Of a stretch of DNA of 64,000 bases, positions 1-51,822 are shown in pieces. Within the stretch, counting starts at the first letter, position 1. Every line of letters begins with the position of its first letter. Origin of the DNA: Eledone cirrhosa. Taxonomy: Eukaryota. The notes beneath the pieces were generated by a model. That model was not told the origin of the DNA, did no database searches, and saw only the letters and a program-made list of their open reading frames with translations. The DNA is taken from contig OZ024742.1 of assembly GCA_964016885.1 (NCBI GenBank), positions 200,136,001 to 200,200,000 of the forward strand, written 5' to 3'. Both the position numbers and the translations under genes were made by a program.

Positions 1-1357
1 TAACTAAAAACTTAAATAATCAAAACTTGGAAAGATTACGTAAAGAGATTAAAATCTTCTTCAATAAACTAGGCCTAGTCATCACTTTCGAACTTAATTC
101 TAAAACATCTAACTTCTTAGATGTATCACTCAACCTAAACACAGGACTAATAGAGCCCTTCCATAAAAATAACGAAAATCTAGCCTACATTAGTTATAAC
201 TCAAACCACCCTCGCTCCATAATTAACTCTATAGCACATAGTGTATCGCTCAGAATTTCACGCTTATCTTCTAACCTAGAGATTTTCAATGAACACACGA
301 ACTACTATAACATAGCTTTACTTAAGGCAGGTCACAAGGAGAGGCTCAAATACATACCAGATACAGACAACAGCAACACACCTAACGACAACAACACCAC
401 CCACACCTATAGAAATAGCAAATATAGGACTAAACATAGAAATAGACAACTAGCACCAGAAATAACTGAACCGAATACTAATATAAAGACCCCTAGGAAC
501 TATAGAAAATACAGAGATAGGAAATACTTATGGTTCAATCTAATATTTAACTCCTCTATAAAAACCAAACTAACTTCTATATTCTTTAAACTAATTGACA
601 AGCACTTCCCTAAACTTCACAAATACCATAAAATCTTTAATAGAAATACTATCAAACTGTCTTACTCTACTGCAGCCAGCATAGAATCACACATACATAA
701 AATTAACTATAGAAGAATCTCTAATGAAAATAACCTACAAACAAACGCCATAACACCAAATACAAAACACAAACACATAACAGCATCGCAACCACACATA
801 CACCAGAACGCATCACAATAAAACACCAACAAACCCAAATCACAGCCCATACATAACAACATACAGAAGCGCATGGAAGAACCGTCACAGAGGAAGGCCT
901 CAAAATGTAACTGTCACTTACCGTATAAGTGCTCACTACAAATTAGATGCCTGGAGTCAAATATAGTGTACCTGTGTACTATAAATTCAGGCAACTTAGC
1001 ATGGCACTGCGTAGGTTCTACGGCTGGGGAGTTAAAAAAAAAAGATGCTACGTCCACAGACATTCTATAAAGAACCGTAGATTAATGAACACAACAACGC
1101 TCGCCAATAAAATCTGGCAGCTTAAAGATACAAACCAAGAATACGGGAATAGCTGGTCGAAACTGTCTGGGGCAAAGGCCTACGAAAATGGAATGTTCCA
1201 CTGCGGACTTTGCAATATGGAGTTGCTTCATATTTTAAAGTATGACAAAATGCTGCTTAACAGCAAAATAGAACGGTCAATTTTCTGTAGGCAGCTACTA
1301 AATTCGCTAATTTCAAACCAACATGATTCGGTCCAACAAGCCCATTATTCAAACTGA
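1..1357 (+). mobile_element. Penelope-like retroelement (Nematis-type, tentative): degenerate RT C-terminus, linker and GIY-YIG endonuclease; runs off the window start
   Basis: ORF 27-821 has FLDVSLNL, YISYNSNHP, SLRISRLSS and LIDKHFPKLHKYHKIFNRNTIKLSYS. Frameshifted ORFs 873-1070 and 947-1357 give CNCxxxxxCxLxxxCL-IVY...(H)CVGST (GIY-YIG remnant), TTLANKIWQLK, CGLCNME and LLNSKIE. Confidence 0.85.
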
Positions 1358-2707: not shown

Positions 2708-5700
2708 CTAGCTGACGTACCCAGCTTCGCCCAGATAAGCAAATAATAAGAGAAGACAGGTAAAAGAGAAAATGACTGTATTGGATGTTTGTCTGGTTAC
2801 AGTATGAGGCGAGTCCGTGGTGTCTGTGTGATACCAAAAACAGTAAAAAAAATCTTCCAGATATACCAGATTCTTCGTTGTATCGTTTGTGCATAGTATA
2901 TGAACAATTCTAGGTGCTCCCACCTAGAATAGTGACCTCTAGGAGATGGTTCATCTTCTGCCTGACTGTAAAACGTGTATCATTGCATAGACGTGGTTGT
3001 TCCACGTTTCTCAAAAGGATGATGGAAGTTCCAATATTTTATATTATATGTAGATATAGATATAGATAATTAATATAAAAGATGTCTGTCAATGTAAAAA
3101 AGGTCCCTATTTACTTGAAATGGTTTATACAAATGCCAAATTAATATGGATATGGATAACATGCTTATCTATAAGTGGTCAGCTATAATAATAAAACAAC
3201 AAATTATATGACACAAAAATGTATTCAGTAATTTCCAGGCTCTTAGCCACTGAGTGATAGACAGTCAATGTTGCCCAGAGTTCAACTCGGGGAGGTGGCC
3301 TGGTTTGAACTCCAAATGGCGGATCCTTCAACTTCGAAAATAGAATCGTTTTTCAATATTAATCTAGCCCTGGCCGGCCATAGGATCCAACCTTTTTGCC
3401 AGACTCAGTATATGATGAGGTTTTATTACCACTGCAATCAGAAGCGATAAATTTGAAGGCAATTTCTACCAATACTTGTTGGTTTTTATTGCTCATTATC
3501 GACAATAAATGACATTGAACAGAAATTATAACTCTGTCAAAGCTCACAATACTGATCAAAGGACACCAATGTCTGAATCATTTACGACGAATATTCATAG
3601 CAGTGAAGGCAATTTCTACCAATACTTGTTGGTATTTATTGCGCAACATAGCAGTGAAAGCAATTTTTACCAATACTTGTTTGTTTTATTGCTCATAACG
3701 ACATTAAATGACATTGAACATAAATGATAACTCTGTCAAAGCTCACAATACTGATCAAAAGACACCACTGTCCGAATCATTTACGTCGCTTATTGATAGC
3801 ATTAAAGATATGCATACATCAGCTCAAAGCTTCATTATAGACAATATTCAGGGTTGTTCCTCTGTTAGTGGTATCAATTGCAAATTTTATACCATCAGGA
3901 TCGCACACTCGAGATGCAGCAACATACAGTTGCTCATGGCTGAATGCTGGATCATTCAAGTAGACACTGACTCGGTTGTCCCCCCTGTGCCTTGTTGACA
4001 GTCATGGAGAAGGCCAAATTGACGGGAAACTGTCTCCTTTGCCAAATGAATTGCAGAAGATCTTCACTTGGTCTCAGCATGATCCTCGGATTGAGAACCG
4101 ATTCCTCTCTGCCTGGGAATTTAAATTCTAAAACTCTTCCCTTAATCAATCTCTCAACAATCAATCTGGTACCATTGCAAAGACCCATTTTATGATTGAT
4201 ATTTCTAAGCAATATAATCGGCATACCCTTTTTCAACCTCAAAATATGTGGGGGAAATCCGAGTATTTGAAGTGAATTCAGATACTCAGTCGGAACATCC
4301 ATATTGTTCTGCTGATTAGGCTCCATTGCATCCGCACTGACGCTCAACCATTCCTCTCCAGGAAACATTCCGACTACTTGTGAATTTATTTCATCGACCG
4401 TTGCATTCGTATGAGTTGGAATAACGCGTTCCGATATCCAGGAGATATTCTGCCAAAAGGTATTCAAATTAGGGAACACCCAGTCAATCAATGCTTGGCG
4501 GTCTAGTGGCATGACCAAATGGTCTGGGATTCTTACAGTCTGATTATCACCAACGTGTGGCAATTCATCGTTTCCCAACTGCATCAACCATCGGCCGTAT
4601 GTCTCAGCCTCTTCGTTTTTCCCAAACATACGAAGTCGCATATTATCGTGTAATCGCAAAACGGGGACTTTTTCAGACATGCATCGACAATTTGCGCTCT
4701 TTGGGCATTCCTACAATTGGTAGCACCTGTCTGAAATCGCCAACAAGAACGATAGTGTTACCACCGAATGGCAGGTCACTACCGCAGATATCTCTCAAAG
4801 TTCTGTCCAATGCCTCCAGCAAATATCTGTGTGCCATTGGAGCCTCGTCCCAAATAATCAGAGACGTATTGCGTATAAGGCCGCGAGTTCACTCAACTCA
4901 TCCGGAGCCAATGGAGCCTTGAAGCATGAGTGGAAGGTCCTTCCACCACTCAGCAAAGTGGCAGCGATCCTACTGGAGGCCACAGGGAGAGCAATCTTCC
5001 TCTGAGCTCTGACTGCCGATAACATAGTGTTGAAACAGAATGTCTTTCCGGTGCCTCCTGGAGCATCTATGAAAACACAAAGTTGCTCATTAGTGGAAAT
5101 CGAGTGGAAAACGCCATCGACCAATTCTCTCTGAGATTGGGTCAACATTGGCATACGTTCATCCACAATACGTTGCTGTTCCAGTGGATCAAACTGGAAT
5201 AGTTCCCTCCGATCGAGTAGCAACCGTCTAAGCTGCAATCTCATGTTCAATGCTAAGACACGTTGCCGCATATCTCCATCAGGAATTGGCAAATTGAAAT
5301 CTCTTAAACATTTGAAATGAACTTCAAGCAGTTGCTCAATATTGATCAAAACAATAGCTTTCATCAAATTTTCATCATCGACCTGAAGATGATGCCTAAA
5401 ATCATCAACCATAATTCCCCAATGGCGTTCAAATAACTCTCTTGGAGCGGCAGGATTGCAGAATCCTAGAATCGTGACAAAAAATTGTGGCATCTGTGTT
5501 GTTCCTGCAGATTCCATGGCGTTATTCCATTCAACGTCATCCTGAAGGAGTCCCAGATGCTGACACACAACCTGGTATGTTTCATATTCCACGCCATTGA
5601 TTGTTTTCAAATCAGCGAATTCGGAGATAAAACACATCACCAGATGCTGGATGGACATTACAAACCCGTCCAATAGTCATGAATCTCAACTTTTGTTTTC

Positions 5701-8700
5701 TATCATTCTATTTCTTTCCCTTCTTATCCCGCGTATAGTGCGAAGGGAAATCACAGTAGAGTTGCCTTTGATCCGGGTTCAAAGCATGTTCCCTATTATG
5801 CTTGAACCACTCAGTCAATTCCGTCTTAGGAGGTGGTGCGTTAGCAATTCTTTCGACACCTCTTCTAGTGTCCTGAAAACAGACCATTTGCCTATTCTCT
5901 AAGTGATCCGTCAGTTTCTTAACGCTGGGTTTGTGTTCATTGAGATCAAAATCGAACAATCTCCAGCAAGCTTCGCTAGATCCAATCGAGCGAACATCCT
6001 GGAACCTGCCAACTTCATCTTCTTGGTTCGCTTCCTCATTCCTGACATTGATCATTGCCCGATCATGACCTTTGTAAACATATTTGAATATATATTTGCA
6101 AGCTTTAACTGAGCTACACATTTCCACATTAATATGACAACGATATTTCATAATCAAATATGGATTGTATGGCACAACCCATTGATTTGTAACCTGTCGA
6201 CCGTTTACATTTTCGACCAAACCGCCATCTGCAGGCGACCGTCTTCTGTATGAGGGATGAGCATCCCCAACGTTCCAGGAAGTGTTCGTGACAAAAGATT
6301 TCGGAAAGTGCTTACTGCATTGGCCATTTTTCATGCAAGGCGCTTTCCGATTTTCCACTCCGCATTGGTTGTGCACCATTGACTTTGCCACCAAGTTGCG
6401 TAGTGCCTCATTCTCCGACAGTTCAGCACACACAATGCTGTCGACATCCTCAGCACATCTCAATTTACAATCTCTATGTAAAATGATCAGCAAATGAGCA
6501 TGTGGCAATCCTCTTTTTTGGAATTCAATTATGTATGTAAAAGCAACTATACCTCCAAAGATTCCCCCTTTTTCCACATCATCCATTATCTTTTTCAGAT
6601 ATCCTTTGAATACTCTTGCCACAATATCAGGACGGTCCTTTGGCTGTTGTCCTGGCATAAGTGCATCCTTAATATCAGTCCATTCAGGATTGCATGTAAC
6701 CGTTATAAACAAATCTGGCTTTCCAAACTTTCTGACAATAGCCATTGCATCCTGATAGCGAATGTTCATATATCTCGGGCCGCCGATGAACGACGATGGC
6801 AAAATGATGCGTCGACCAATTTGCTTGTAATTGGCATCATCGGCTGTTATCACATCCTGTATATTATTATACTATTCAGCTCTGATATGTTGCTGATGTG
6901 TAGCTATATAATCTAGCCTTTGATTTTCGATCTTTGCGAATGCCATACAACAGTATTCCTGGAACAATCTGCTGGCTTGAAATAGTACATTTCTCTGTTG
7001 ATTCCTCTCGTTTAAATGGAACGCGTAAAAGTCGCTAATCGAATTATTGTGTCTATTGCTACCTCCCTGTTGATGCTGATTCTCATGATCATCTAAATGA
7101 ACAGACATGTTCCATCCATTTTCACCTTTTGGGAATAAAAGAACATAATGCAATGGATCGTATGCCCTATTTGACTCATTGATAGTCTTGAGACCACCAT
7201 CTCTGCGATTGAGGACGATATCTCTCGATCCAGGCTTATCGTTCATCAAAACAGCAACTTCACGAAATCCTTCAAGGGCATTATATCGCCGTTCATGTTG
7301 ATTCCTTGGCACTGCGTCAGCCTTAATCACCAATGTTTGCTGCTGAACATTTTGCAGTTCAGCCACCAACTTGAAATCCATAACATAAGGATTACACTGT
7401 CTAAGCCATGATTGCAAATCTAGGATCAAATCACTTAACCTTTGCCGTTCCAGTTCAGTTATATTTCCCGGCAACTTCATCCAACCGATCCTGATATCCT
7501 CCTCCGATTCACTATAATCTGGATCGTTAACGTAAATTTGAGTGAATCGAGGCCTCTCTCCTGGGGTAACTTCTAAATTACCGATACAATGATACAAACG
7601 GCCTTGAATGACTACATTCGGTTGCCATGCTCCACTCTCAAACATCTCACTAACTCTCTGCGATGCTAAAGCTAATGAATTGTTAATTTGCCGCCAATAT
7701 TTGCGCAGTAATCTACCTCGGTCTCCTTGATCACTCGACATACTTAGTATTTTAAACTCGGGTGACTCCTCATCATCCGGCATTCGCAAGTGTTCTTGTT
7801 GAATTGCTCCTTTATGGCAGCACATTGTGGTCCACGTCTTTTCGTGCCTCCAAATCAATGCTCCACAATGTAGGCACTCTGCTCGTCCACCAATCTGGAA
7901 ATGACACGGTTGCCATGATCCATTTATAATATCATTCATTCGCCTTCTAGCTTCTTTACTGGAATGAGGAGCACTTTGGCGACACATTCTCTGAACTTCT
8001 GTATTGCACTGGCGCTGTTAAGCCAGCTCCTCTTCATCCATCGCAGCACGCCGTTGCTGCTGAATTCTAGCCATCTGCTGATGGTGCTCAGCCAGTTCGT
8101 CTTCAACCATCGCAGCACGCCGTCGCTGCTTCGTTCCAGTGTTTCGTTGGCGTTGTTCAGCCAGCTCCTTTTCATTCATGGCGGCACGTCTTCGCCTCTG
8201 AAGTTCAGCGTTCCGATGGCGCTGTTCAGCCCCTTTTTCTTCATTGCTGGCTGCACGCCGTCGCCGCTGTATTTCACTGTTTGATAAAGTCGAATTGCTT
8301 TTATTATCAGTATTCATTTCGAGCAATTGTCAAAAAATGAGACAATAATAAATATAAAAGATGTCCGTCAATGTAAAAAAAGGTCCCTATTTACTCCCTT
8401 CACAACTCTGTGTATGTTAGACTGACAGACAGGCACACAGACAGATAAACTGCGTGGCGATTGTGGAACGCCACACACATACACGCATGGAAACGCGAAC
8501 ACGCACGCAAACTTACACACGTATACACTCACACATGTTGATAGTTTTTACTTTCTGTGGAACGATGCACGCACGCACACACACATAAACATACGCGCAC
8601 GTACATACACACGCACACATGTTAATAGTTATTGCTTTCCTTCCCCTCTTATTTCCACACACATCACACACACACATGTCTCTACACTGACACATATGCA

Positions 8701-10616: not shown

Positions 10617-11089
10617 TCAAGTTTGAGGTTCACCACTGTATAGAGCTGGTCTATTCCGTATGGTCAATCGTAATGCAATAATATAGAGAGTACTCAACGT
10701 AAAGCAGTTCAACCGTCTTTGTTTTTGTAGTTGGTGGTGCTATTACGGAGTTAAATATTATAATGAAATGACAGGAGGCTGGATTTGTGTAAATCCTTGA
10801 AAGGTTTATTATACTATGATCATTTCAATGACCGGGTTCCGTATGAATCCGGTGATATCATCAGGTATTCGAAATATAATACGTGAATGTAATAGGTAAA
10901 ATCCATGGGGCTGAAAATCGGGTCTCGATTTTCAGCCCCATGGATTTTACCTATTACATTCACGTATTATATTTCGAATACCTGATGATATCACCGGATT
11001 CATACGGAACCCGGTCATTGAAATGATCATAGTATAATAAACCTTTCAAGGATTTACACAAATCCAGCCTCCTGTCATTTCATTATAAT
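10615..11089. repeat. PLE pseudo-LTR-like element with a fold-back (arms 10757-10920 and 10926-11089)
   Basis: 164-bp inverted arms around the loop GGTCT, flanked by (TA)n on both sides. The same sequence recurs at 32059-32368. Confidence 0.9.
10978..11035 (+). ncRNA. Minimal type I hammerhead ribozyme; identical copies at 10811-10868 (-) and 32116-32173 (+)
   Basis: ATAC-CTGATGA-TATCACCGG...CCGGTCATT-GAAA-TGATCA-TA/GTAT. Stem I ATAC/GTAT, stem II ACCGG/CCGGT, palindromic stem III ATGATCAT, AUA cleavage triplet. Confidence 0.8.
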
Positions 11090-11114: not shown

Positions 11115-12480
11115 AGTATTAGTTATACTATTTATGGTTATGTAAATACAAAACCTTATGCAGTTATAAGTATTTTTTATATACACCCTAAATAGTGGTA
11201 GGCAGTAATGTATTACTACCTTATTACCAGTAAGTTAAGTAGCTCAATGTAAAAACATCAGATGATTTACAGAGCAGTTATATGAAATATAAGAATCAAA
11301 GAACTGTTCAAAACAGTATTGTGCTTACAGCTGTTTCCTCCAAACCGAGGTTTGGATTCTTCGGAGCAAGTTATTAATGCATGGACAGTTATATGACCTC
11401 CTTTTCAGCCAAGAGACATACCGATACATATGCAAATATTGTGGGTCAACATTCATTACAGAATTTAGAGTGGCAGTACTCACTTCGAGATTACATTCAT
11501 ATTAAGAGGTACAATCAAAAATCAAAAATACAGGTTAAAATACAACATGAAGATAAGCGGTTATATAGTGCAAATGTTATATGTGTGGTAAGCATGTGCG
11601 TCTTGTTTATATAGTGTGGCAGAGAGATATGTGTGGTAGAGGCACTTAGGTAGGTAAACAAGAGTGTTAGGTTGGTAGATCAGGTGGCAAATTCTTTATA
11701 TGATTGATATAGTCTGTGTGTGGAGAAATGTTATAAGCATTAAAAATAGTGCAAGCATTAAAAGTGTTAAAAGTATTGGAGATGTACAGCGAAGGGATGT
11801 CAAGTATTTCATGTACTTCGACATTTTCATTGTCAGGGGAGTGTATTTTTCGATTGTATGCCCCTCACATAATCCACGACAATTCGATATTGTGAGGGGC
11901 ATACAATCGAAAAATACAGTCCCCTGACCATGAAAATGTCGAAGTACATGAAATACTTGACATCCCTTCGCTGTACATCTCCAATACTTTTAACACCTTT
12001 AATGCTTGCACTATTTTTAATGCTTATAACATTTCTCCACACACAGACTATATCAATCATATAAAGAATTTGCCACCTGATCTACCAACCTAACACTCTT
12101 GTTTACCTACCTAAGTGCCTCTACCACACATATCTCTCTGCCACACTATATAAACAAGACGCACATGCTTGCCACACATATAACATTTGCACTATATAAC
12201 CGCTTATCTTCATGTTGTATTTTAACCTGTATTTTTGATTTTTGATTGTACCTCTTAATATGAATGTAATCTCGAAGTGAGTACTGCCACTCTAAATTCT
12301 GTAATGAATGTTGACCCACAATATTTGCATATGTATCGGTATGTCTCTTGGCTGAAAAGGAGGTCATATAACTGTCCATGCATTAATAACTTGCTCCGAA
12401 GAATCCAAACCTCGGTTTGGAGGAAACAGCTGTAAGCACAATAATGTTTTGAACAGTTCTTTGATTCTTATATTTCATAT
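11115..12480. repeat. PLE pseudo-LTR fold-back with 590-bp arms (11280-11869 and 11891-12480)
   Basis: Near-perfect inverted repeat, which explains the mirrored ORFs 11381/12379 and 11700/12060. Flanked by (TA)n and homologous to 16040-17115 and to 18130-18500/21700-21884. Confidence 0.92.
12392..12438 (+). ncRNA. Minimal type I hammerhead ribozyme, U4C core variant; inverted copy at 11322-11368 (-)
   Basis: TGCT-CCGAAGA-ATCCAAACCTCGGTTTGGAG-GAAA-CAGCTG-TA/AGCA. Stem I TGCT/AGCA, stem II TCCAAACC/GGTTTGGA, palindromic stem III ACAGCTGT, GUA triplet. Confidence 0.75.
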
Positions 12481-12743
12481 ATATATATATATAAATAATT
12501 TGAATAAAAATGGCGTAGGCTTTACAATACATCGGGAGGAAACATAATAGTACCACTGATGATGCCGCAGATGTGTGACGAAAGAACTTTGATAGACTAT
12601 ATATATATATTTACTATATTTACAAATAAATTAACTATGGAGATATAAAAGATACAGAAGCGAAAACCAACCCAAACCAAACAGTGAGTGTGTTCTGTTA
12701 TTATTTCTGGCAATATTATAACAATATAACCCTCCCCAAGTAA

Positions 12744-12780
<37 letters not shown>

Positions 12781-12848
12781 GATATGGTACAAATAACGGT
12801 TTCTGATTTAGGAACATGTCCAGTGGGAATGAAAATATATTATTGATA

Positions 12849-13350
12849 ATTGTTTCTACTTTTGGTACAAGGCCAGCAATTAAATCAGTGCATTACTGGT
12901 ACTTTATTTCATCGACCTTGTAAGGACGAAAGGCAAAATTAACTTCTGTGGTACTTGAACTTAGGCAGTAAAGGGCCGTAACTCTATGCTGCCAATGATA
13001 TTATAATACAGTAGTAATGTATCGCAGATATCGATATTATAATACGGATAAAATAGGGCATTATAAAGATAATGATGATATGAAACAGATAATGATATAA
13101 TAGCATAAATATTAATAATATACTATATATAATGGTTTCTTATATAGGCACAAGGCCAGCAATTCTGGGGGAAGAGGAAAGCCGATTAAAATCGACCCCA
13201 GTGTGTGACTGGTACTTTATTTTATCGACCCGGTAAGGATGAAAGGCAAAGTTAACCTCGGCGGCATTTGATCTCAGAATAGCAAGGGCCGTAACTCTAT
13301 GTGTCAAAGCATGGCGTCCGACCCTCTACCGATACTGCCAATCCACTGTC
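12849..13350 (-). mobile_element. Two tRNA-derived SINE copies (family 1)
   Basis: The minus strand has the A-box-like TGGCAGTATCGG, a B-box-like GAGTTCAAATC-type motif and the core GCCTTTCATCCTT...GGTCGATAAAATAAAGTACCAG. It recurs about ten times in the window. Confidence 0.75.
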
Positions 13351-13669
13351 CTGGTATGATAATATATATAATGATAATATACGTAAAGAGACGTAACTAT
13401 ATACCGCAAAGCATGTTGTCCGATGCTCTATCGATACTACTAAACCAGCAGAGATTGTTAATACTGTAGGTGATTGAGATGTCAAAGTACACCTTTGGTA
13501 GCAAGGTTATAACTGCTATATTGTATATTTGTGTGTATATGGGGGGAAGAGGGGTGTGTGTTTGTGTGCGTGTGTGTTTCTTTATACAAACTGTATGGAT
13601 ACAACATAGTCGAATAGATAGGAACTATGCCTCACAATCATATGGTCCCGGGTTCGATATCACTGCGTG

Positions 13670-13770
13670 GAAGAAGAAGAAGAAGAAGAAGAAGAAGAAG
13701 AAGAAGAAGAAGAAGAAGAAGAAGAAGAAGAAGAAGAAGAAGAAGAAGAAGAAGAAGAAGAAGAAGAAGA
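13670..13770. repeat. (GAA)n microsatellite; a (CTT)n tract also occurs at 24377-24515
   Basis: Perfect trinucleotide runs. Confidence 0.98.
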
Positions 13771-14149
13771 CTGTTTGGAAGGCTGTCAGCTGGGTGCTGC
13801 CAGTAATTCAAAAGGCCAGGATTATCACACACTGCGTCATACTGAATGTTAAGGGTACCCGTGGCTGTGTAATACTCAGCCACAGATTTTGATCTCAAAC
13901 CTTTAGGTAAAAAACTGTTTCTTGTACACCGGGAAATACGGTACTACTGGGAAGATGTGATGGACTCTTCTCGTCATTTTGTGCTCATTTCAGAAATTAA
14001 TACATAATAGTTGTAAGTGATGGGGGGTTGGCAGAAAGGTTGCGATAGCAGTATTGGTAAGGTGTGTGGCAATATGTCATAAACGAAGCCGGCCTTAGGC
14101 TATGAAAGAAAAATACGTATTTGGTGGGGTTCAAATGCTAATTTCAAAT

Positions 14150-14950
14150 CTTGGAAATAAACCCTGTGTGCCTTCACTACACTTGGTCCAGCGATTCTTC
14201 CACTGTTCAACTCTAACCCTAACCCGTTTGTAATGCTTCTTCCAGAACGACCCTTAGCTCCGCTGTCGCAGTCTACATGATGTCTTTTTAGCTCTCAAAG
14301 CAGGAGCCTTTCGGCGGCATCTTCATTTTAGGGAGCAATGCCTGAAGAGTTAGGAGTCGGGCGAATGAACAAAAATGTTTTTCTTTGCCAAAAAATCTTG
14401 GATTTACTTCGACGAATGAGCCGGGTCGTTGTCATGGTGCAGCTGTCAGTTTTGCGAGACACACAGATTCGGTCTCGCGTGCCGAACTACATCACAAAGA
14501 CACCGAAGGACTTCCTGATAATATTCCTGTGTAACTATTTATCCTTCTAGTACATAATCGTAAGGCATAACCTCTCGATAGTCGAGGAAAACAGTCAGCA
14601 TCACCTTGATTTTACATTGCACTGCTATGCTTTTGGGCGCATTGGCAACGCTGAATGATTTCACTGTGATAACTAAGCGTTGGTTTACAGATCTTACCTG
14701 TTCAGCCACGCCTCATTTGCCATTATCATGGTATTCTGGGACTCAGGGTCGTTGCTCCTAACGTTTCGCCGTCACCGGTGAAATGAAAATGAAACACAAA
14801 GAAATTGTACTTCATCTCACAAATTAGCTGTCTGATAGTGTCAGACGCATCCAGTGATCTTGTCAAAAGCACGCATGCGCATGAATGTATACTGCTCCAC
14901 TATGAAAACGTTTGTCTCCCTAGCATCAATACTTCCCACGGGAAAATATG
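14150..14950 (-). mobile_element. Degenerate mariner (DD34D-type) transposase fragment
   Basis: Minus-strand translation gives TGDGET, NDPES, KVMLTVFLD, LHHDNDPAH, HSPD and EQWKNRWTKC, matching the mariner motifs TGDETW, KVMLTVFFD, HDNAPAH and YSPDL. Confidence 0.8.
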
Positions 14951-15317
14951 ACCTAGGATATAAATCATTTTGACTCTAAACATAGTACAAATCACTTGGG
15001 CTCCACATACTATAAATCCCTTTGGTTTCACATACATTATGTATTAAGTCCTTTCTTTTCGACAGCTGTTAATTTTGTTCTCAGCAACTGATTTCTGCAC
15101 CGAATCTTGTTAGTGTGTATAACTAAGAAACCATTTAGAAAGGAGAGCATTTAACATGACATATCTTTGACGGAGTATTCTATCAGATATATATTGACAA
15201 CATTGGCATATTGAATACAGAAGCAGAGACAGACAGTATACATTTCACTCTTGTTCTCTCTCCCTCGCCACCTCTCGCTGTATACATACATACATACATA
15301 CATACATACATACATAC

Positions 15318-15892
15318 ATGGTGGCTGCCAACTCGTTTTCGAGTACGGCCACTACTTTATATCCATGTAGGAGAACCCCTACCGATGCGTTGAACGAGTG
15401 TGAATTTTTAGTCCAGCCAGCGACTTGAAAACTCTGGTTCAAACACTACACTTGTGACAATTATTGACACATAGTGCTGGGCCCATGGTACCATGTGACG
15501 ACAAATGCAGAGAGATCTCCAGATATAAAGCAATGCCTGTGCCGTGAAGCTTTTATAGTGAGCAAAGGCACTGCACAAAGCCAGTCCCACTCTCTTAACC
15601 AAGATGATATTTACCAAAAAGAAGAACAAGTCAACATCATTGGATACCATCAGAGTTGCAGGTGTTATATCAGAGTTTTCCTTCTCCTAGAATTCTGCCT
15701 TGACAAAGGCTAAGGGGTCATCTCTCCCAGTGATTTAGGATGGCCATTGACTCTTAAGAGCTCCTTTGTCCTTTGACAGGTTTTGTTTTTAGTCCTGCAG
15801 GATGTCCAAAGTCACCCTCCTCACCGAGAAACCTTGGTGGGGTTGCCAGTTTAGTCGCCAACGACCCGACCATGAGACAGGTTGTACTGGGA
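15318..15892 (-). mobile_element. About 575-bp interspersed repeat embedded in (CATA)n, probably an RTE-LINE-related non-autonomous element
   Basis: Highly similar inverted copies at 62805-63386 and 62283-62657 and a diverged copy at about 37805-38110. Contains CTAGGAGAAGGAAAACTC, which resembles RTE 5' regions (family assignment from recall). Confidence 0.65.
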
Positions 15893-15944
15893 TACATACA
15901 TACATACATACATACATACATACATACATACATACATACATACA

Positions 15945-15976
<32 letters not shown>

Positions 15977-16039
15977 CACACACATATATATATATATATA
16001 TATACATATATAGCACTATATAATAAGGAGTAATCAACT

Positions 16040-17115
16040 TCCTATAGATACCTTTAATACATTATGATAGAGTAGACTGTATTTAAAATTGAAAATTAAA
16101 TATAAATATATAACCTTTTATATAAGGGACTCAATTGAGGCACCATATAATGTATGTTAGAACAATGAATTTAGTTATGAGAATCAGCTAGTTACCTCCC
16201 CTTACGCATTAACTCCCCTTAATTACACACCTACTTCCGGGTAATAAACCACTGTAAATTATCGCAGCAGTAAGAACCTATTCTATAAATATGGATTAAA
16301 TAACACTGAGCCTCAATACGCTACAATAATTTAATGCATCAAACATTAAATACGGAATCATCGTAACTTATGTGATAGATGTAAAAACTATAACTTCCTT
16401 TTTCTGAATGTGAAAATGGTGGTGGATACGAAAACTATAACTTTCTTTTTTTCTTCTTCTTTTTCTTTTTCTGCACATATACTTTTTTAATCTATACAAA
16501 AAATACCCTACCTCTACAACCACCATAATACTCTTGCTTACCCGCTTAAAGTGCTTGCATTACATGTAACACCTTGCCACATAATAATCGTTTATAAATG
16601 AGACACACTTGCATGCTCCATGTGTAACTAACGCATACACTACCTACTAGATCTGACTGTCAAACTATCCTCTTACATTATCTGTGTTATCTGCCGCATG
16701 TATTTTAATTTTGATTTTGATTTTGATTTTGATTTTGAATTTGAATTGCTGTACAAAGATAGTATAGTATAATATATGTCACTCCACTGTACATCAATAT
16801 ATATATATGTATCTGTATGTCTCTTACGTTGGATAGGAGGTCAATTATATGTACAAACATTGAAAAATGCTCCGAAGAATCCAAGCCTAGGTTTGGATGA
16901 AACAATTGTAAGTGAATAAATTCTTTGAACATAGCTTTGATTCTTGTGAATTCTATATAACTGCTCTGTAGAACAACTGATTTTATTACATTGAGCTATT
17001 TATCTTGCTGGTAATAAAGTAGTAATAAATTACTGACCTTCCTGTTTATGGTTTAAAATATACATAACTATAAAAAGTTTAAAATATACATAACCATAAA
17101 TAGTATCCTTAATAT
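16040..17115 (+). mobile_element. Solo PLE 3' UTR/pseudo-LTR, diverged relative of 20940-21884
   Basis: Shares AATCAGCTAGTTACCTCCCCTTACGCATTAACTCCCC and the downstream HHR with the PLE at 18-22 kb. Ends in (TA)n. Confidence 0.8.
16868..16914 (+). ncRNA. Minimal hammerhead ribozyme, U4C variant
   Basis: TGCT-CCGAAGA-ATCCAAGCCTAGGTTTGGAT-GAAA-CAATTG-TA/AGTG, followed by AATAAA. Confidence 0.72.
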
Positions 17116-17143
17116 TATATACATATATATATGTGTGTATATA

Positions 17144-17188
<45 letters not shown>

Positions 17189-17422
17189 CAAACGGAATAG
17201 AAAATGTTGACAAATTGTTCACAGTGAAAAATAGTTTAATTAGGAATAAGTGAGAATTAGTAATGGTATTGGTTGGTATTAAGTTTTGGTTTTAAGTTTT
17301 ACCGGTTGCGCATTTCTAATGCTTTTCAAAAATAATTTTGAGATAGAGCATCCGTGATGTTTGCTCTGATCTGGCAAACATCATATATATAACACTCATA
17401 TATATGTCTGCCTGTCTAAGTG

Positions 17423-17473
<51 letters not shown>

Positions 17474-17475
<2 letters not shown>

Positions 17476-17678
17476 GTGGGAAAGTAAAAGAATCGGAGAA
17501 TAGACCGTTAAAACATGTTTATTTAAAATATCACCTACGTACGTTTCACCCAGTTGGGCTTCTCAAGGGCATAAATATTTATGCCCTTGAGAAGCCCAAC
17601 TGGGCGAAACGTACGTAGGTGATATTTTAAATAAACATGTTTTAACGGTCTATTCTCCGATTTTTTACTTTCCCACGT
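17474..17678. repeat. 205-bp near-perfect palindrome next to (TA)n
   Basis: ACGTGGGAAAG...GCATAAATATTTATGC...CTTTCCCACGT, with no spacer. Confidence 0.92.
17585..17620 (+). ncRNA. Minimal hammerhead ribozyme, U3-A8 core variant; inverted copy at 17533-17568 (-)
   Basis: CC-TTGAGAA-GCCCAACTGGGC-GAAA-CGTACG-TA/GG. Compensatory C3U/G8A change, palindromic stem III ACGTACGT, short stem I. Confidence 0.65.
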
Positions 17679-17834
17679 GCTTACGCTCTGCTAACTCTCT
17701 AGCCCACTAAATATTAACACTTCAAATATTTAATACTGCCGGCACTAGTATAGAGCACCTTTGGCATACGCTACTTGGCAAATAACTATATGTATCACCT
17801 ATCCCCCCTATTTTTCTCTTTCTCGATACGTAAA

Positions 17835-17933
<99 letters not shown>

Positions 17934-18129
17934 CACACACACATATATCTATCTATATATATATATAAATATAGTAATAATAATAAATTTGAAGACTAAA
18001 ATCCAAAGAGGGCTCGATAAGGATAAATATATATCAAATATATAAGAACCGTAGACCAAATTCCGTAGGGTGAAAGCATCGATTCTTTGCTTAAACTTTA
18101 ATCTGTTATTTTAATAAATATATATAAAT

Positions 18130-21100
18130 ATAGTATTAAGGATACTATTTATGGTTATGTATATACTAAAACCTTTTATAGTTATATATATATTATACCC
18201 TAAATAGTGAAAGACAGTAATGTATTACTATCTTATTACTAGTAAGATAAATAGCTCAATGTAACAACATCAGTTGTTTTACAGAGCAGTTATATAGAGA
18301 TTACATGAAACAAAGTTCTGTTTAAATCATTTATCTGCTTACAATTGTTTCTTCCAAACCGAGGTTTGGAGTCTTCGGAGCAATTATTCGGTGATTTTTA
18401 ACATACTTGACCTCCTTTTCAACACAAGAGTCATATAGAAACATATGTATATATTGACCCACAGTGGGTTGACATCCATTATAATAATATAGCATGGTAA
18501 TTTACATATAACGATTACAGTCATATTAAAGGATAAAATTAAAGTTAAAATTAAAATTAAAAATTAAAATTAAAATAAAACATTGGCAGTCTACTAAGAT
18601 AAAGCAAAAGGAAAGTTTGGAGTAGCCAGTGCATGCAACAGTCACACGTGTGGCATGCACGCGTGTCCTATTTATACAAGATTATAGTGCGGCAAATTGT
18701 TACAAGTAAAACAAGCAGTCAAAGCAGGCAATCAAGAGCATCATGGGGGTGAACTGGTTAAGCATTATTTACACACACCTGTACGATATAGAAGCCCGTG
18801 TGTGGAGAAACACCAAAAATATCAAAAATATTACAAATGAGAAGCAAAACAGCACCACTGTCCTCGCACACACCACCACTCTCACAATTCAGGAAACGCA
18901 ATTTATAGACTACATGCTCATCTCACAATCCACGATGATTCAACATTGGGTGCCTGGTGAACCATGCTAGAACATCACAGCTTGTCGTTCTTTAACTCGA
19001 TTCATAGATCAGGTTGTTTTTGTTGTGATAGATGACATCGTATTATATTCCGGAAGTGTGTGTGTGATTAAGGGGAGTTAATGCGTAAGGGGAGGTAACT
19101 AGCTGATTTTTATAGTTAAATGTATTATCCTAAAGTACATTAATGGTGTCTCAAATGAGTTCCCATCATATAAGGTTATCAACAATTTCTAAATTTAAGT
19201 ATCTTATCTATAAATTACAGTGTAGTCTATCGAGAAGTACTAAAGATGTTCATATTAGGATGAATACCTTTTATCATAGAGTGCCTCCACCGAACATTCC
19301 ACATGAAGAGTCAGATCTCCAAATCAATGATCTTTGTAAGTGTAAATTTAGTAATAGGAATATCAACCACACACACACTAATACGGAAGATGCAAACAAA
19401 AATAACCCACACCACAGAAATACCATAGTACCATAAAAGGAAACAACTCACCAGACATAAAAAACAAAAATAGAAGAAGAAATAACACATTTTCAACCCT
19501 CCTTTCAATCTAAACGTCTCTACCAACCTACCTAGGGCTTTCTTCTCACTACTAGATAAAAACTTCCCATCCGGCCATAAGTACCATAGCCTTTTAAACA
19601 AAAACACTATTAAAATCTCCTACTTTACTACGCTTAACATAGCATACCACATAGCTAGTAGCAATAAAAGAAAAATTAATTCTTACTTCCAGCAAACTAA
19701 ATCACAACAGACGATAAACCTTCAAAATAACATTATAGCAACTAACCCTAATATCAATAGAAATAATAGTAATAACACTAGTGTAAACAATAACGCTGGG
19801 AACGTCAACCCACATAACCATAACCCTATAGCTACCATCCAGACTTCTACACAACATAATAACCGGCAGACTAACACCCAGAATAATTGTAACTGTAGAT
19901 CAAATAGAACCTGCCCTTTAGATAAAAAATGCTTAACCAAGGATATCATATACTCATGCACAGTCACAACTAGCAACTCTTCTGAAACCTATATAGGCTC
20001 TACTTCAAACTGCTTCAAAACCAGATACAATTCGCACCTCCACTCTTTCAAAAAACACAGTCTAGCTACATACACTATCTAAAAACTAAAAATAAACCAT
20101 ATACACTTAAATGGGAAGTGATAGGTAACGCGTCATCGTACAAACCACCTAATAAATTTTGTAACCTCTGTCTACTAGAGACCCATACTATCATCTTCTC
20201 AAACCATAACCTCCTTAACAAAAAATCAGAAGTGTTCGCGTCTTGCCAACACCGCTTCCGACACTCTTTCCTAAACTTTAAACCCAATATATAACAATGT
20301 CAGACTTGAACCCGTCACCACCTCTAGCAGCAATCATCAGGGGCACACCTTACACCTCATCTCCACACCCATTAATCCTCTTTAATGCAAATAGTGACAT
20401 CCTCCTAGTACCTTTTACCTTGGAGATATCCCCATGTACTTCTACTTTTGGTATATTGGCCTTCAATTGCTTAGACTACATTACACCAATGTAAACTTTA
20501 AGCACGGAATTGGTTGTGCTAACATTGTCCTGTGTATGTAGTGCCATCATTGGATAAATGGAAGATTAAGTAATTAATTTATTAACATAAAAGAGCTATA
20601 TAATCTATATGCTGAGTGCAATGAATTATGTACAGGTGATGTATGAGTTATAAATACATGTATGACTTGATGGTCAGATCAGTGTCTTTGTAAGTGAGAA
20701 TTGATCTCTGGACTACCCTAGTGATATTTAACTTTGCCATGCAATCAGTCATGCAATGACCCAGAACTTACCAGGAGTCATATATAGAAGTGATTCTAAT
20801 AAGACCCTGCCAGGTCCTGCGGGTGGACTACACTTACAAAGATCATTGATTTGGATATCTGACTCTTCATGTGGAATGTTCGGTGGAGGCACTCTATGAT
20901 AAAAGGTATTCATCCTAATATGAACACCTTTAGTACTTCTCGATAGACTACACTGTAATTTATAGATAAGATACTTAAATTTAGAAATTGTTTATAACCT
21001 TATATGATGGGAACACATTTGAGACACCATTAATGTACTTTAGGATAATACATTTAACTATAGAAATCAGCTAGTTACCTCCCCTTACGCATTAACTCCC

Positions 21101-21884
21101 CTTAATCACACACACACTTCCGGAATATAATACGATGTCATCTCTCACAACAAAAACAACCTGATCTATGAATCGAGTTAAAGAACGACAAGCTGTGATG
21201 TTCTAGCATGGTTCACCAGGCACCCAATGTTGAATCATCGTGGATTGTGAGATGGGCATGTAGTCTATAAATTGCGTTTCCTGGATTGTGAGAGTGGTGG
21301 TGTGTGCGAGGACAGTGGTGCTGTTTTGCTTCTCATTTGTAATATTTTTGATATTTTTGGTGTTTCTCCACACACGGGCTTCTATATCGTACAGGTGTGT
21401 GTAAATAATGCTTAACCAGTTCACCCCCATGATGCTCTTGATTGCCTGCTTTGACTGCTTGTTTTACTTGTAACAATCTGCCGCACTATAATCTTGTATA
21501 AATAGGACATGCGTGCATGCCACACGTGTGACTGTTGCATGCACTGGCTACTGCAAACTTTCCTTTTGCTTTATCTTAGTAGACTGCCAATGTTTTATTT
21601 TAATTTTACTTTTTAATTTTAATTTTAACTTTAATTTTGTCCTTTAATATGACTGTAATCGTTATATGTAAATTACCATGCTATATTATTATAATGGATA
21701 TCAACCCAATGTGGGTCAATATATACATATGTTTCTATATGTCTCTTGTGTTGAAAAGGAGGTCAAGTATGTTAAAAATCACTGAATAATTGCTCCGAAG
21801 ACTCCAAACCTCGGTTTGGAAGAAACAATTGTAAGCAGATAAATGATTTAAACAGAACTTTGTTTCATGTGATCTCTCTATATA
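18130..21884 (+). mobile_element. 5'-truncated Penelope-like element with an upstream inverted pseudo-LTR
   Basis: 18291-19344 is the reverse complement of 20829-21884. Between the arms, 19490-20280 translates to FNPPFNLNVSTN...LLDKNFPSGHKYHSLLNKNTIKISY, CNCRSNRTCPLDKKCL, IIYSC...TYIGST, CNLCLLE and LLNKKSEVFASCQH (GIY-YIG). Flanked by (TA)n. Confidence 0.9.
21791..21837 (+). ncRNA. Minimal hammerhead ribozyme, U4C variant, in the PLE pseudo-LTR; inverted copy at 18336-18382 (-)
   Basis: TGCT-CCGAAGA-CTCCAAACCTCGGTTTGGAA-GAAA-CAATTG-TA/AGCA. Confidence 0.75.
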
Positions 21885-21889
21885 TATAT

Positions 21890-22060
21890 TTATGTAATAA
21901 ACAACATAAGGCAATTATTCCAATTACCAGTGGTTTCTTAAAAGAAACCACTGGTAAATGGAATAATTGCTTTTAAGAAACCACTGGTAAATGGAATAAT
22001 TGCTTTTAAGAAACCACTGGTAAATGGAATAATTGCCTTATGTTGTTTATTACATAACTA
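21890..22060. repeat. Three tandem 33-bp units plus one inverted unit of a PLE pseudo-LTR end
   Basis: Unit AAGAAACCACTGGTAAATGGAATAATTGCTTTT at about 21942, 21975 and 22008, with an inverted copy at 21890-21938. It matches 51763-51822. Confidence 0.85.
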
Positions 22061-27110: not shown

Positions 27111-28657
27111 TGTTTCTTTATTAGCCACAGGGGCACAAAAGAAGGGGACAAATACAGAGGAGGAAGTTTACATACAATAAAAACGTGTAAAATACTATCA
27201 CAAATGCAATTTAAAATTTAATCGATTTTCCCCAATAGGGGGAGACATTTCATATGGGTAACACATACCCCCGAAAAAATGTGCAACCCTCATCTCCAGG
27301 AGTACCAAGAGTTTGTACCCCTTTCCTCTCTTCCTCTTTTTCCTCAACCTACAGGCTGATATAGAGAGAAAGCCCATTCACTCGGGCCATTCTCGCCACT
27401 TTCACCCACCTTTCATAAAACTTGCTGGGGTACAGCACCTCTCTCCCCATCCTGATTCTTCTTCCAAAGTGGTATTTGAAAAAAAGAATCAGTTGTTGGC
27501 CGGAGAGAAAGGTGTCTGACCTCAGCCCTTTTAACCTCGTCCACCATACAACCTCTTTCGCCATAGCTATCACACAAAGGAAAACCGCCTCACCTTCGTT
27601 TTTGAAGGAGGGTGGCGGTTTGATCATGACAATGGACTCTGTGGTCAACCGGATTGGTCCCACCCGCGACAATAGTCGTTCTACATAGCCCCACAGGTCG
27701 GTAACGCCCGGGCAGTGTATGAATGCGTGCGCGATGGTTTCTTTGTCTCGCACGCATCTCGGACAGATCTTTTTCGAAGAGTCCCTGCCCGGGCGCCCAT
27801 GTCTGTAGAGCTTGTCTCGAATTGGTAGAGCTCCTCAGTAGTACTGCCAGGGCAGGGACTTTTGGAAGTTGTCCATTGGTCCCGGGCGGAAGGTCCTACC
27901 GAACAGACTGGCCAGTTCGTCTTCCTCTACGCCTAGAGTTTCTCCGAGCGCGTTGACACACTTGCTGCGGATCAACCCTCTATAGAATGACGAAGTGGAG
28001 TCTCCACTGATCGCCGGGTCAGCCTGCCAGAGGGCTGTGAGCGCCTGAGCACATTCAATGTGCCAGTCGCCCATTTTCCTCGGTCTTTGCTTGACCCAGT
28101 ACTGCAGCTCGGTCAGCGGGACGAGTCGGTTGTCCGGTGAGGAATACGTAGAGATGCCGCAGCCGGAGCGCGTATTTGCGCATCGTCAGCCACGGCATCC
28201 CCAGCACTCCGTTGGAAGGGTGTTGGCAGCAGATGGATCTTCTCACCAAAGGAGCCCGCTTCTTCCAAAGGAATTGGTAGAGCGCGTTTGGTGAGCGTTT
28301 TGGCTGGACAAGGCACGACGGTCAAGCGGTAGTAGATGACGGACGCTATAAAAGTGTTCGCCACCTCCGCTCGACCTTTCAAGGATAGTTTGCACTCGAC
28401 CGACTTCTGGGTGAGTGCAAACACCTTGGCCGCTATCTCGTTCCAGTTCTTCTCCACCTGGAGGTCCGGACCAAACCAGACCCCGAGCAGCTTTACCGGT
28501 CCTTCCGTCCAGCGTCCGACAACGCCATCAGAAGGCATCGGTTTTCCTCTCCACGATCCAATTTGCAAACCGATGAACTTGTCCCGGTTCAGCTTCGCTC
28601 CGGCGAACCTTTCGTATTTCTTCAGTAAGATGCCGACCTCCCCGATTTCCGAGCCGT
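27110..28657 (-). mobile_element. 5'-truncated L1/Tx1-type LINE, same family as 44835-48925
   Basis: ORFs 28113-28709, 27835-28074 and 27349-27753 closely match ORF2 segments 47350-48694 (GPVKLLGVWFG, ETIAHAFIHCP), followed by the 3' UTR. Confidence 0.9.
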
Positions 28658-29489
28658 GTAATACAAATGAATATATATATATACTTGTATCGGTGTTCAT
28701 CCCTCCCATATATTCATTTGTATTACAAGGCTCGGAAATATTCCCTTCTTTGAGCTATTTAATTGTAAAAGACTATTTCGAGTTTATAACTCAATATATG
28801 ATATTGTCGGCTCCATACGTAGAGCTAATTTTAGTCCCATAAAACCGGCTGCTATTTTTAGCGGCACGGCATGAGACATGTCCGTTCAAAAACACATATT
28901 TCTCAGTCTTCTTATGTATTTTGAAGTGAAAGGTACGAATTTCCTGGATACCCGCAGAAGAGTACAGGGATAGTGACTTTCACTTAATAATTGTTGCGAA
29001 ACAGATTTAGAATCTGTCCGGGTATCACGGCCATTGCCAATATAGGTTTGTTATTTTTATTGATTTATTACTTTAAATTAGTATTTTTCAACCTAGCTAA
29101 CTTGGTCATTTGCAATTCGAGCGGGCGTACCGAAGACGATAAATGGAATAGAATGAAACGAAATTTCATTTCTCACTCTTAGTACAGCAGTACTTAAATG
29201 TAAGTATGCATACGTACATACATATATGTATACAGACGTACAGTACTATGTATATATATATACATACATGCACACATATATATATGCACGTATCGGTTTA
29301 CAGAACATTTATTATAATGCTCGGTTTGTTTGTAAACAAACAAACAGTCCGAATTACGCCGTACAGTGTTTAGGCAACCACGTCACCTTTTTGTTCAATA
29401 CTGACACAGGAACGATGTACTAGTTTCAAGCTTATTAGCTATCGTCAACATCGTATACCTTCCTGCCAGATGGTTGAACGTCTGAAAGT

Positions 29490-31556: not shown

Positions 31557-31644
31557 GTGTCCGAGGAACCTGCGAGTCTAAAGTCAGGTCGATCCACATA
31601 CAGATCGCACCTGGAGCAGTTCGCCGGGGAAACAATTGTAACAC
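31557..31644 (+). ncRNA. Type I hammerhead ribozyme, U4C variant with extended stem II, in a roughly 145-bp element between (TA)n tracts
   Basis: GTGT-CCGAGGA-ACCTGCGA...(CAGGTCGATC/GATCGCACCTG hairpin)...TCGCCGGG-GAAA-CAATTG-TA/ACAC, then AATAAA. Confidence 0.72.
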
Positions 31645-32058: not shown

Positions 32059-32463
32059 GGTCTCGATTTTCAGCCCCATGGATTTTACCTATTACATTCA
32101 CGTATTATATTTCGAATACCTGATGATATCACCGGATTCATACGGAACCCGGTCATTGAAATGATCATAGTATAATAAACCTTTCAAGGATTTACACAAA
32201 TCCAGCCTCCTGTCATTTCATTATAATATTTAACTCCGTAATAGCACCACCAACTACAAAAACCAAAGACGGTTGAACTGCTTTACGTTGAGTACTCTCT
32301 ATATTATTGCATTACGATTGACCATACGGAATAGACCAGCTCTATACAGTGGTGAACCTCAAACCTGAACTGATCAATAGCGAAACGCGCGTCACCAATC
32401 AATAAACGTAATGAAGGCTTAACAAATCGCCCTTGTATTGCTACAGTAACTTCACGTTACACT

Positions 32464-32543
<80 letters not shown>

Positions 32544-32700
32544 AGTGTAACGTGAAGTTACTGTAGCAATACAAGGGCGATTTGTTAAGCCTTCATTACG
32601 TTTATTGATTGGTGACGCGCGTTTCGCTATTGATCAGTTCAAGGTTCGATCTGTATCGATCTGGCCCGACTCTGGAATCAAAAGCTCGTTGGATGACTGC
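32059..32700. repeat. Composite pseudo-LTR element with a tail-to-tail inverted repeat around (TA)n
   Basis: 32059-32368 is the reverse complement of 10615-10925. 32364-32467 is inverted at 32541-32644. A decayed HHR lies at 32611-32692 (-), related to 49207-49289. Confidence 0.85.

Positions 32701-49712: not shown

Positions 49713-51822
<2,110 letters not shown>

What the first reader, a model, noticed from the sequence alone, without database searches (positions are those of the whole stretch)
11322..21837. A PLE family fixed for a U4C hammerhead core (CCGAAGA)
Seen: five copies from three clearly diverged subfamilies all read CCGAAGA instead of CUGANGA. Stems I and II are retained, and stem III switches from ACAGCTGT to ACAATTGT, a double change that keeps the palindrome. 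U4C also appears in the distinct motifs at 31561 (CCGAGGA) and 49287 (CCGACGA). Inference: U4C is a maintained variant rather than decay, and strict consensus searches would miss it. The copy at 21791 ties it to a GIY-YIG PLE ORF.
Basis: partly seen in the sequence, partly recalled or inferred. Interest (0 to 1): 0.75.

Follow-up and report, generated by a model that had tools for sequence, protein, structure and literature searches.

The report
Hydra retroelement hammerheads release core U4
These five motifs are the ends of three insertions of an abundant Penelope-type jumping gene whose hammerhead RNA motif carries C instead of a normally fixed U in nearly every copy while the rest of the core stays unchanged, so it likely still cuts itself but slowly, and related families with U, C or A at that place offer natural pairs for testing how much the cutting matters.

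Summary
Confirmed. The five CCGAAGA minimal hammerheads are three insertions (two are inverted arm pairs) of a Hydra-clade Penelope-like element. Genome-wide, 6,769 of 6,954 motif matches have C4. The 142 U4 copies are scattered and match the mirror change G5A (124), which fits CpG decay after insertion. C4 is also read in three other organisms. The core is unchanged across subfamilies (synonymous divergence up to 0.6) and in a sister family (about 1). The stem III palindrome changes AT, GT, GC and likely pairs only in a dimer. The motifs at 31561 and 49287 are C4 families too, but their sister family is U4, and two small relatives have A4. Position 4 therefore looks released rather than compensated. 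Copies end 46-47 or 210-211 nt past the cut site and some carry G5 changes at both ends, so templates are likely uncut. Best reading: a slow, probably protein-assisted dimeric ribozyme; cleavage untested. U4C is published for a viroid and a zeta virus; I did not find it for Penelope elements (one key paper unreadable). The scan noted C4 Hydra hammerheads before, in this and other genomes.

The parts
11116..11874 (-). Insertion 1, left arm: end of 3' UTR, hammerhead and long 3' end (about 210 nt past the cut site) ending in a TA tract
11322..11368 (-). Hammerhead 1 (C3 11364, C4 11363, palindrome ACAGCTGT, A17 11326)
11886..12481 (+). Insertion 1, right arm: inverted copy, short 3' end (46-47 nt past the cut site) into a TA tract
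12392..12438 (+). Hammerhead 2 (C3 12396, C4 12397, ACAGCTGT, A17 12434)
16148..17115 (+). Insertion 2: 5'-truncated 3' UTR, hammerhead and long 3' end; left boundary approximate
16868..16914 (+). Hammerhead 3 (C3 16872, C4 16873, ACAATTGT, A17 16910; stem I with G.U pairs)
18128..19344 (-). Insertion 3, inverted left arm with long 3' end
18336..18382 (-). Hammerhead 4 (C3 18378, C4 18377, ACAATTGT, A17 18340)
19344..20291 (+). Insertion 3: 5'-truncated, frameshifted reading frame (linker CxCX5C and GIY-YIG endonuclease), 75-87% identical over its two main pieces to the intact 818-aa protein of L063
20292..21882 (+). Insertion 3: 1.5-kb 3' UTR, hammerhead and short 3' end into a TA tract
21791..21837 (+). 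Hammerhead 5 (C3 21795, C4 21796, ACAATTGT, A17 21833)
31557..31644 (+). Related family D: C4 hammerhead with 61-nt stem II (C3 31561, ACAATTGT, A17 31640); 222 matches, 91 of 100 listed C4
49206..49290 (-). Related family E: C4 hammerhead with homologous 60-nt stem II (C3 49287, ACGCGCGT, C17 49209); 923 matches, 82 of 100 listed C4
28947..29026 (+). Hammerhead-like motif with A4 (C3 28955), 8-bp stem I; 6 of 6 genomic matches A4; Hydra-like endonuclease remnant about 1 kb upstream in 2 of 5 fetched loci

Best explanation
This is the 3' hammerhead motif of a Hydra-clade Penelope-like retrotransposon family in which core position 4 is C in nearly all copies; it likely works as a slow, dimer-dependent and probably protein-assisted self-cleaving ribozyme, which the element likely tolerates because it is copied from RNA still uncut at that site. 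Shown: the 4,172-bp unit with an intact 818-aa RT-endonuclease frame; C4 as the lineage state; an unchanged C3, G5, A6, G8, A9, G12-A14, A15.1 and U16.1 while flanks, N7, H17 and the 10.1-11.1 pair change; a stem III palindrome that stays self-complementary; two fixed 3' ends downstream of the cut site. Inferred: two motifs pair through the palindrome and each cuts the other after position 17; loss of the U4 contact slows this; reverse transcription starts at the two downstream sites on a tandem transcript; selection keeps some cleavage but not speed, so position 4 drifted from U to C and in two small families to A.
For: Lineage state: 6,769 C4, 142 T4, 43 purine; T4 142 against G5A 124, p 0.30. 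Raw reads of coded organism B give C4 in 1,166 of 1,238; contigs of E (1 of 1) and G (2 of 2) agree. Constraint: 0 of 11 core columns against 36 of 81 free flank columns vary among five subfamily majorities, naive p 0.002; dS 0.41-0.62 with dN/dS 0.13-0.27 among diverged copies; sister family B at dS 0.9-1.4 differs in the core only at N7 and H17 and is C4 in 89 of 100 listed. Dimer: monomer stem III adds about 0 kcal/mol while the 8-bp intermolecular palindrome gives -6.4 to -11.1; central pair AT 30, GC 14, GT 3, other 0 of 47 copies; 35 of 43 stem III words in families B-E pair at all four positions and H17 is never G. Uncut template: all 25 ends of the youngest subfamily that leave the element do so at +46/47 (17) or +210/211 (8) (after a 3-nt offset correction); in a Poseidon element, hammerhead mutants still insert and cleavage needs the protein (PMC11167929, passages). 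Natural C4 cores can cleave: a viroid U4C is slower but infectious (PMC3088659, passage); a zeta-virus CCGA core self-cleaves (bioRxiv 10.64898/2026.09.16.752053, passages).
Against: No cleavage or expression data were obtained. Only 1 of 30 copies found by the start of the reading frame begins within 3 nt of the cut site; 25 of 30 include the whole upstream motif, so there is no genomic footprint of cutting. G5 changes, expected to abolish cleavage, are shared by both ends of single insertions (L066, L067 tandem; L079, L080 inverted; loci picked for this), and G5A is not depleted against T4. A4 lineages spread (44 of 60, in at least two subfamilies 73-83% alike). N7 and most of stem II are also unchanged within the family, so part of the conservation is not core-specific. 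The palindrome tally includes family B loci whose search pattern fixed most of that word.
Confidence: 0.55

Rival explanations
1. The hammerhead fold is kept as a binding or positioning signal for the element's protein, and cleavage is no longer needed in the C4 and A4 lineages.
For: Both fixed 3' ends lie just downstream of the motif; G5-changed templates appear to have been copied; A4 lineages spread; hammerhead mutants insert normally in vitro in a Poseidon element.
Against: The conserved letters are the catalytic set, while stem II length (about 12, 20 or 60 nt) and sequence differ between families. H17 changes among A, C and U but is not G in any of 43 copies. No G5-changed lineage has amplified in this family: 155 scattered matches.
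Confidence: 0.25
2. C4 is fully compensated (a protonated C rebuilds the U-turn, or the protein replaces the contact); the RNA is cut at both motifs and religated into a circle that is reverse transcribed.
For: A protonated C replaces U in the U-turn of the neomycin riboswitch (PMC4105743, abstract and passages). A circle would explain intact motifs at both ends, upstream repeats from 56 nt to over 1,300 nt long and private changes shared by both ends. The circle model is proposed in PMC4209133.
Against: A at position 4 cannot mimic U this way, yet A4 lineages spread. Tandem copies with G5 changed at both ends could not circularise on their own. The viroid U4C is reported as considerably slower.
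Confidence: 0.15
3. The motif is an inactive relic that hitchhiked with a successful master element; its uniformity reflects recent amplification.
For: The youngest subfamily is nearly uniform (several copies 99-100% identical); departures at positions 4, 5 and 7 behave like neutral post-insertion changes.
Against: The core is unchanged over dS of 0.6 within the family and about 1 to family B, and across families whose proteins are only 40-50% identical; the palindrome covaries.
Confidence: 0.05

Closest known systems
Hydra clade of C-terminal-endonuclease Penelope-like elements, including Hydra-1_Obim (Craig et al. 2021, PMC8557442; seen: passages, section 11, supplement parts 2-3)
   Same: Single RT-GIY-YIG frame with RWK-like motif (RVRWR), DKT, CxCX5C linker, CxxC and CxH; TA-tract insertion; tandem and inverted layout; type I hammerhead with palindromic stem III and often a mismatch at 10.1-11.1.
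   Different: All 26 Hydra rows in File S2 have U4 (found with a descriptor that demands it). This family is C4, has a 1.4-kb 3' UTR and a 4.2-kb unit (published Hydra elements are generally under 3 kb).
Minimal dimeric type I hammerheads of Penelope-like elements (Cervera and de la Pena 2014, PMC4209133; seen: main text parts 1-2 of 4, whole supplementary PDF text)
   Same: Short stem I, long stem II, palindromic stem III, dimer model, family-level core variants (U3-A8).
   Different: All 56 motifs of Fig. S3 have U4; the descriptor is 'cuganga'. The described variant is a compensated pair swap, whereas C4 has no visible partner change.
Natural U4C hammerheads: viroid variant (Ambros and Flores 1998, not held; seen only as cited in Perreault et al. 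2011, PMC3088659, passages and section 8) and zeta virus ZV1 minus strand (bioRxiv 10.64898/2026.09.16.752053, passages)
   Same: Same core change, compatible with cleavage.
   Different: Single variants in RNA replicons; here it is fixed in thousands of genomic copies, in several families and several organisms.
PAc Poseidon element of Anolis (Frangieh et al. 2024, PMC11167929; seen: passages)
   Same: Two fixed reverse-transcription starts, AT-rich targets, uncut RNA as main template, protein-assisted hammerhead.
   Different: The passages describe C3 and G8 tests only; the two starts are 30-40 nt apart and inside the frame, against about 164 nt apart and upstream of the frame here.

Membership tests
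Hydra-clade Penelope-like element | Single frame with RT and C-terminal GIY-YIG endonuclease | tested here: met
   Intact 818-aa frame in L063 with YRDD, VIYSC and TYVG. Pfam is weak: no hit above cut-off for L063, GIY-YIG E 0.022 for the window remnant.
Hydra-clade Penelope-like element | RWK motif, DKT in place of DKG, CxCX5C linker, CxxC and CxH motifs | tested here: met
   RVRWR at 35 (R for K), DKT 122, CNCRANRTC 677, CNLC 775, CQH 803 (features). Absence of CCHH read by eye.
Hydra-clade Penelope-like element | Insertion into TA tracts; tandem and inverted copies | tested here: met
   Ends run into TA tracts; tandem 4,172-bp unit and inverted arms.
Hydra-clade Penelope-like element | Placement in a tree with the published Hydra proteins | not tested
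   Published sequences were not usable as input; assignment rests on motifs. Nearest named homologue is an Argonauta protein at 38%.
Type I hammerhead ribozyme (minimal, dimeric) | Stems I and II and palindromic stem III around the core in type I order | tested here: met
Type I hammerhead ribozyme (minimal, dimeric) | Consensus core with U4 | tested here: not met
   C4 in 6,769 of 6,954 matches; so filed as a core variant, not as a canonical member.
Type I hammerhead ribozyme (minimal, dimeric) | G10.1-C11.1 pair | tested here: not met
   A.G, C.A, C.U and others; mismatches here are also common in published Hydra motifs.
Type I hammerhead ribozyme (minimal, dimeric) | Rfam Hammerhead_1 score above cut-off | tested here: not met
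   C4 copy: no hit at E up to 10; natural U4 copy: 12.9 bits against 34.
Type I hammerhead ribozyme (minimal, dimeric) | Self-cleavage after H17 | not testable with these tools
   Needs a bench assay.

The most novel reading that the evidence does not exclude
Hydra-clade elements have evolved a hammerhead whose U-turn position is free (U, C or A in spreading lineages) because the element's own protein supplies the missing contact, making cleavage conditional on protein binding and timed after reverse transcription; about half of this genome's hammerheads with an 8-nt stem III word are of this kind and are invisible to U4 descriptors.
Probability: 0.25. Interest if true: 0.72.

Novelty: new variant of a known kind. 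Interest (0 to 1): 0.5.

Why it matters
Whether Penelope-like elements need their hammerhead to cut is open. This genome holds natural matched pairs: family D (C4) against its U4 sister with the same long stem II, and C4 against A4 sublineages of family C. It also holds young copies with an intact frame. A generic search gave 11,826 C4 matches (control 512) against 12,467 U4 matches (control 1,262) for this motif type, so U4-only descriptors undercount it by about half here. The element type, the dimer model and U4C as a tolerated change are all already known, which limits the surprise.

Tried and rejected
1) 'Only pyrimidines are allowed at position 4, so a protonated C replaces U': rejected as the main reading after A4 lineages appeared. 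2) An amplified U4 revertant lineage: T4 matches were over-represented on smaller contigs, but all 142 are scattered over subfamilies and a control CpG in loop II shows the same skew (24 against 14). 3) 5' ends at the cut site as a footprint of cleavage: 1 of 30. 4) First conservation test was discarded because it included loci picked for changed cores; repeated without L031-L060, L065-L067 and L074-L080 (5 of 47 copies fell outside clusters). 5) Protein trees: families A and B group together (99%), D lies apart, deep branches are unresolved; L221 and L224 were not family D frames, so no count of origins from proteins. 6) Expression: no RNA holder listed. 7) First read-laying was not decisive for organisms C and D (few contigs, position near contig ends); run X17 laid nothing. 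8) Whole-window Rfam scan showed no hammerhead among the 150 of 216 rows printed. 9) Papers not held: Lunse et al. 2017 (PMC5785218), Ambros and Flores 1998, Nelson and Uhlenbeck 2008. Searches for C4 in Penelope hammerheads found none, but Lunse 2017 and the Terminon paper describe variants that I could not see, and bioRxiv supplements are closed.
Full report
Observation. A structural scan of the window finds the five motifs as described: stem I, CCGAAGA, a 20-nt stem II region, GAA, an 8-nt palindrome, A17 and stem I'. They belong to three insertions. 11364/12396 and 18378/21795 are arms of inverted repeats of 596 and 1,054 nt; the three insertions are 72-78% alike around the motif. All fixed ends run into TA tracts. 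Insertion 3 holds a truncated, frameshifted endonuclease frame 1.5 kb upstream of the motif.

The element. Tandem copies elsewhere in the genome (3.0 Gb) give a 4,172-bp unit with an intact 818-aa frame (L063). It has RVRWR, DKT, YRDD, a CxCX5C linker, a GIY-YIG domain, CxxC and CxH, the features listed for the Hydra clade (PMC8557442, section 11). A tree with published Hydra proteins was not made. The host is probably an octopod; this is my inference from the nearest named homologue (Argonauta, 38%).

C4 is the lineage state. With the rest of the pattern fixed, 6,769 matches have C4, 142 T and 43 a purine. These are motif matches, not insertions. The mirror changes at G5 number 124 (A) and 31 (pyrimidine); neither pair differs (p 0.30 and 0.20). 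Changes at N7 number 50. C4 and G5 form a CpG, so T4 reads as decay after insertion, and no U4 lineage has spread. A search by flanks alone gave 6,374 matches; 97 of the 100 listed have C4 (read by eye) and 30 of 30 copies in the fetched loci do. Laid on a natural T4 copy, raw reads of coded organism B read C4 in 1,166 of 1,238, and contigs of organisms E (1 of 1) and G (2 of 2) agree. One of these labels may be the window's own species.

The rest of the core is constrained. Among five subfamily majorities (42 of 47 copies), 0 of 11 core columns vary against 36 of 81 free flank columns (naive p 0.002); part of this set was found with the core fixed, so the flank-only sample above is the unbiased check. 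Reading frames of diverged copies differ by dS 0.41-0.62 with dN/dS 0.13-0.27, so the subfamilies stayed active while diverging. Sister family B (1,457 matches, 89 of 100 listed C4) lies at dS 0.9-1.4, with frames assigned by adjacency, and differs in the core only at N7 and H17, the two free positions. Caveat: N7 and most of stem II are also fixed within family A.

Stem III argues for a dimer. As a monomer the stem adds about 0 kcal/mol; the intermolecular 8-bp palindrome gives -6.4 to -11.1. In families B-E the word differs (ACGATTGT, ACACGTGT, ACGCGCGT) and pairs fully in 35 of 43 copies; H17 is never G (the B pattern fixed most of its word).

Position 4 across families. The motif at 31561 (family D, 222 matches, 91 of 100 listed C4) and that at 49287 (family E, 923 matches, 82 of 100) share a long stem II with changes on both sides at four pairs. 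A third family with the same stem (1,139 matches) is U4 in 98 of 100 listed; the three are 66-70% alike, so position 4 switched at least once within this trio. Family C is A4 in 44 of 60 matches, C4 in 14, with A4 in at least two subfamilies, Hydra-like endonuclease remnants nearby and the rest of the core present. The motif at 28955 is A4 in 6 of 6. The large U4 family G has only 46 scattered non-U matches of its pattern. A generic pattern gives 11,826 C4 against 12,467 U4 matches (controls 512 and 1,262). Protein trees group A with B and leave deeper branches open. So the position looks released, and C4 is not shown to be favoured.

How the element is copied. In the youngest subfamily, 17 copies end 46-47 nt and 8 end 210-211 nt past the cut site; 18 others run on into the frame (the script's zero lay 3 nt upstream of the site). 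The template therefore contained the motif intact. Of 30 copies found by the start of the frame, 25 include the whole upstream motif and 1 begins within 3 nt of the cut site. Both ends of one insertion often share private changes, including G5 changes in L066, L067, L079 and L080 (picked for this); 12 of the first 100 listed G5-changed matches lie in six such pairs (by eye). Gene conversion between arms is not excluded. This fits the Poseidon element PAc, where reverse transcription starts at two internal sites, hammerhead mutants still insert and cleavage needs the protein (PMC11167929, passages).

Mechanism. Most likely (0.55) the motif is a slow, dimer-dependent, probably protein-assisted ribozyme: selection keeps the catalytic letters but not speed, because the template has to survive uncut. 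The wording 'slow cutter copied from uncut RNA' was seen in an earlier scan note before my tests of the ends. Rivals: fold kept for protein binding without cleavage (0.25); full compensation with a circular template (0.15; a protonated C can rebuild a U-turn, PMC4105743); relic (0.05). Cleavage, dimer formation and expression are untested.

Comparison with print. All 26 Hydra rows of File S2 in PMC8557442 and all 56 motifs of Fig. S3 in PMC4209133 have U4, but were found with a descriptor that demands it. U4C is known from a viroid, slower in vitro but infectious (PMC3088659, passage; the source paper was not held), and from a zeta virus whose CCGA core self-cleaves (bioRxiv 10.64898/2026.09.16.752053, passages). 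CYGANGA descriptors are in use and report C/T variation (PMC13481778, passages). My searches found no report of C4 fixed in Penelope-like elements; Lunse et al. 2017, the likeliest place, could not be read. Also seen: PMC6765202, PMC6155905, PMC7229834, PMC6061696 and PMC3376415 (passages), and bioRxiv 10.64898/2026.07.22.740005 (part 1 of 5); none added a C4 case.

Verdict. A real, well-supported new variant of a known kind. The scan has noted C4 Hydra hammerheads before in this and other genomes. Interest 0.5: the natural U/C/A pairs make the need for cleavage testable, but the element type and the tolerance of U4C are known.

Noticed in passing
window 28947-29026 (+); G000 loci L311-L336: Two small Hydra-like families carry A at core position 4: 6 of 6 matches for the 28955 motif and 44 of 60 in family C, with the rest of the core present.
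   Followed up: partly
G000, contigs C12 and higher: T4 matches are over-represented on the smaller contigs (77 of 142) compared with other changes; a control CpG in loop II shows a similar C-to-T skew. Cause unexplained, probably mutational.
   Followed up: partly
window 29448 (-) and 29887 (-): Two hammerheads 439 nt apart on the same strand, one with U3 and one with C3, palindrome ACTAGT; retrozyme-like spacing.
   Followed up: no
window 10757-11089 and 32120: A U4 hammerhead family (palindrome ATGATCAT) as a perfect 164-nt inverted pair next to insertion 1, with a third copy at 32120.
   Followed up: no
window 21890-22060 and 51739: Three tandem 33-nt copies of the 3' half of another U4 hammerhead family sit directly behind insertion 3; a complete motif of that family is at 51739.
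   Followed up: no
window 32383-32624 and 49310-49400: A fold-back of the 3' half of family E around a TA tract, and a degenerate inverted second copy beside the 49287 motif.
   Followed up: no
window 3-1357 (+): A second, distant Hydra-like element (34% identical to the L063 protein); no hammerhead seen in the 1 kb after it.
   Followed up: partly
window 53112-54731 (-): A 539-aa RT plus GIY-YIG frame of another Penelope-like clade, Neptune-like by recalled motifs.
   Followed up: no
window 3952-8017 (-): Broken frames with motifs recalled as Helitron Rep and PIF1-type helicase; no family search run.
   Followed up: no
window 27349-28842 and 45425-48694: Fragments of a non-LTR retrotransposon (endonuclease and RT motifs by eye).
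   Followed up: no
L078:2454 and 6383 (+): Two tandem copies share the same unrelated sequence upstream of the hammerhead, as if a truncated copy and its flank were duplicated together.
   Followed up: no
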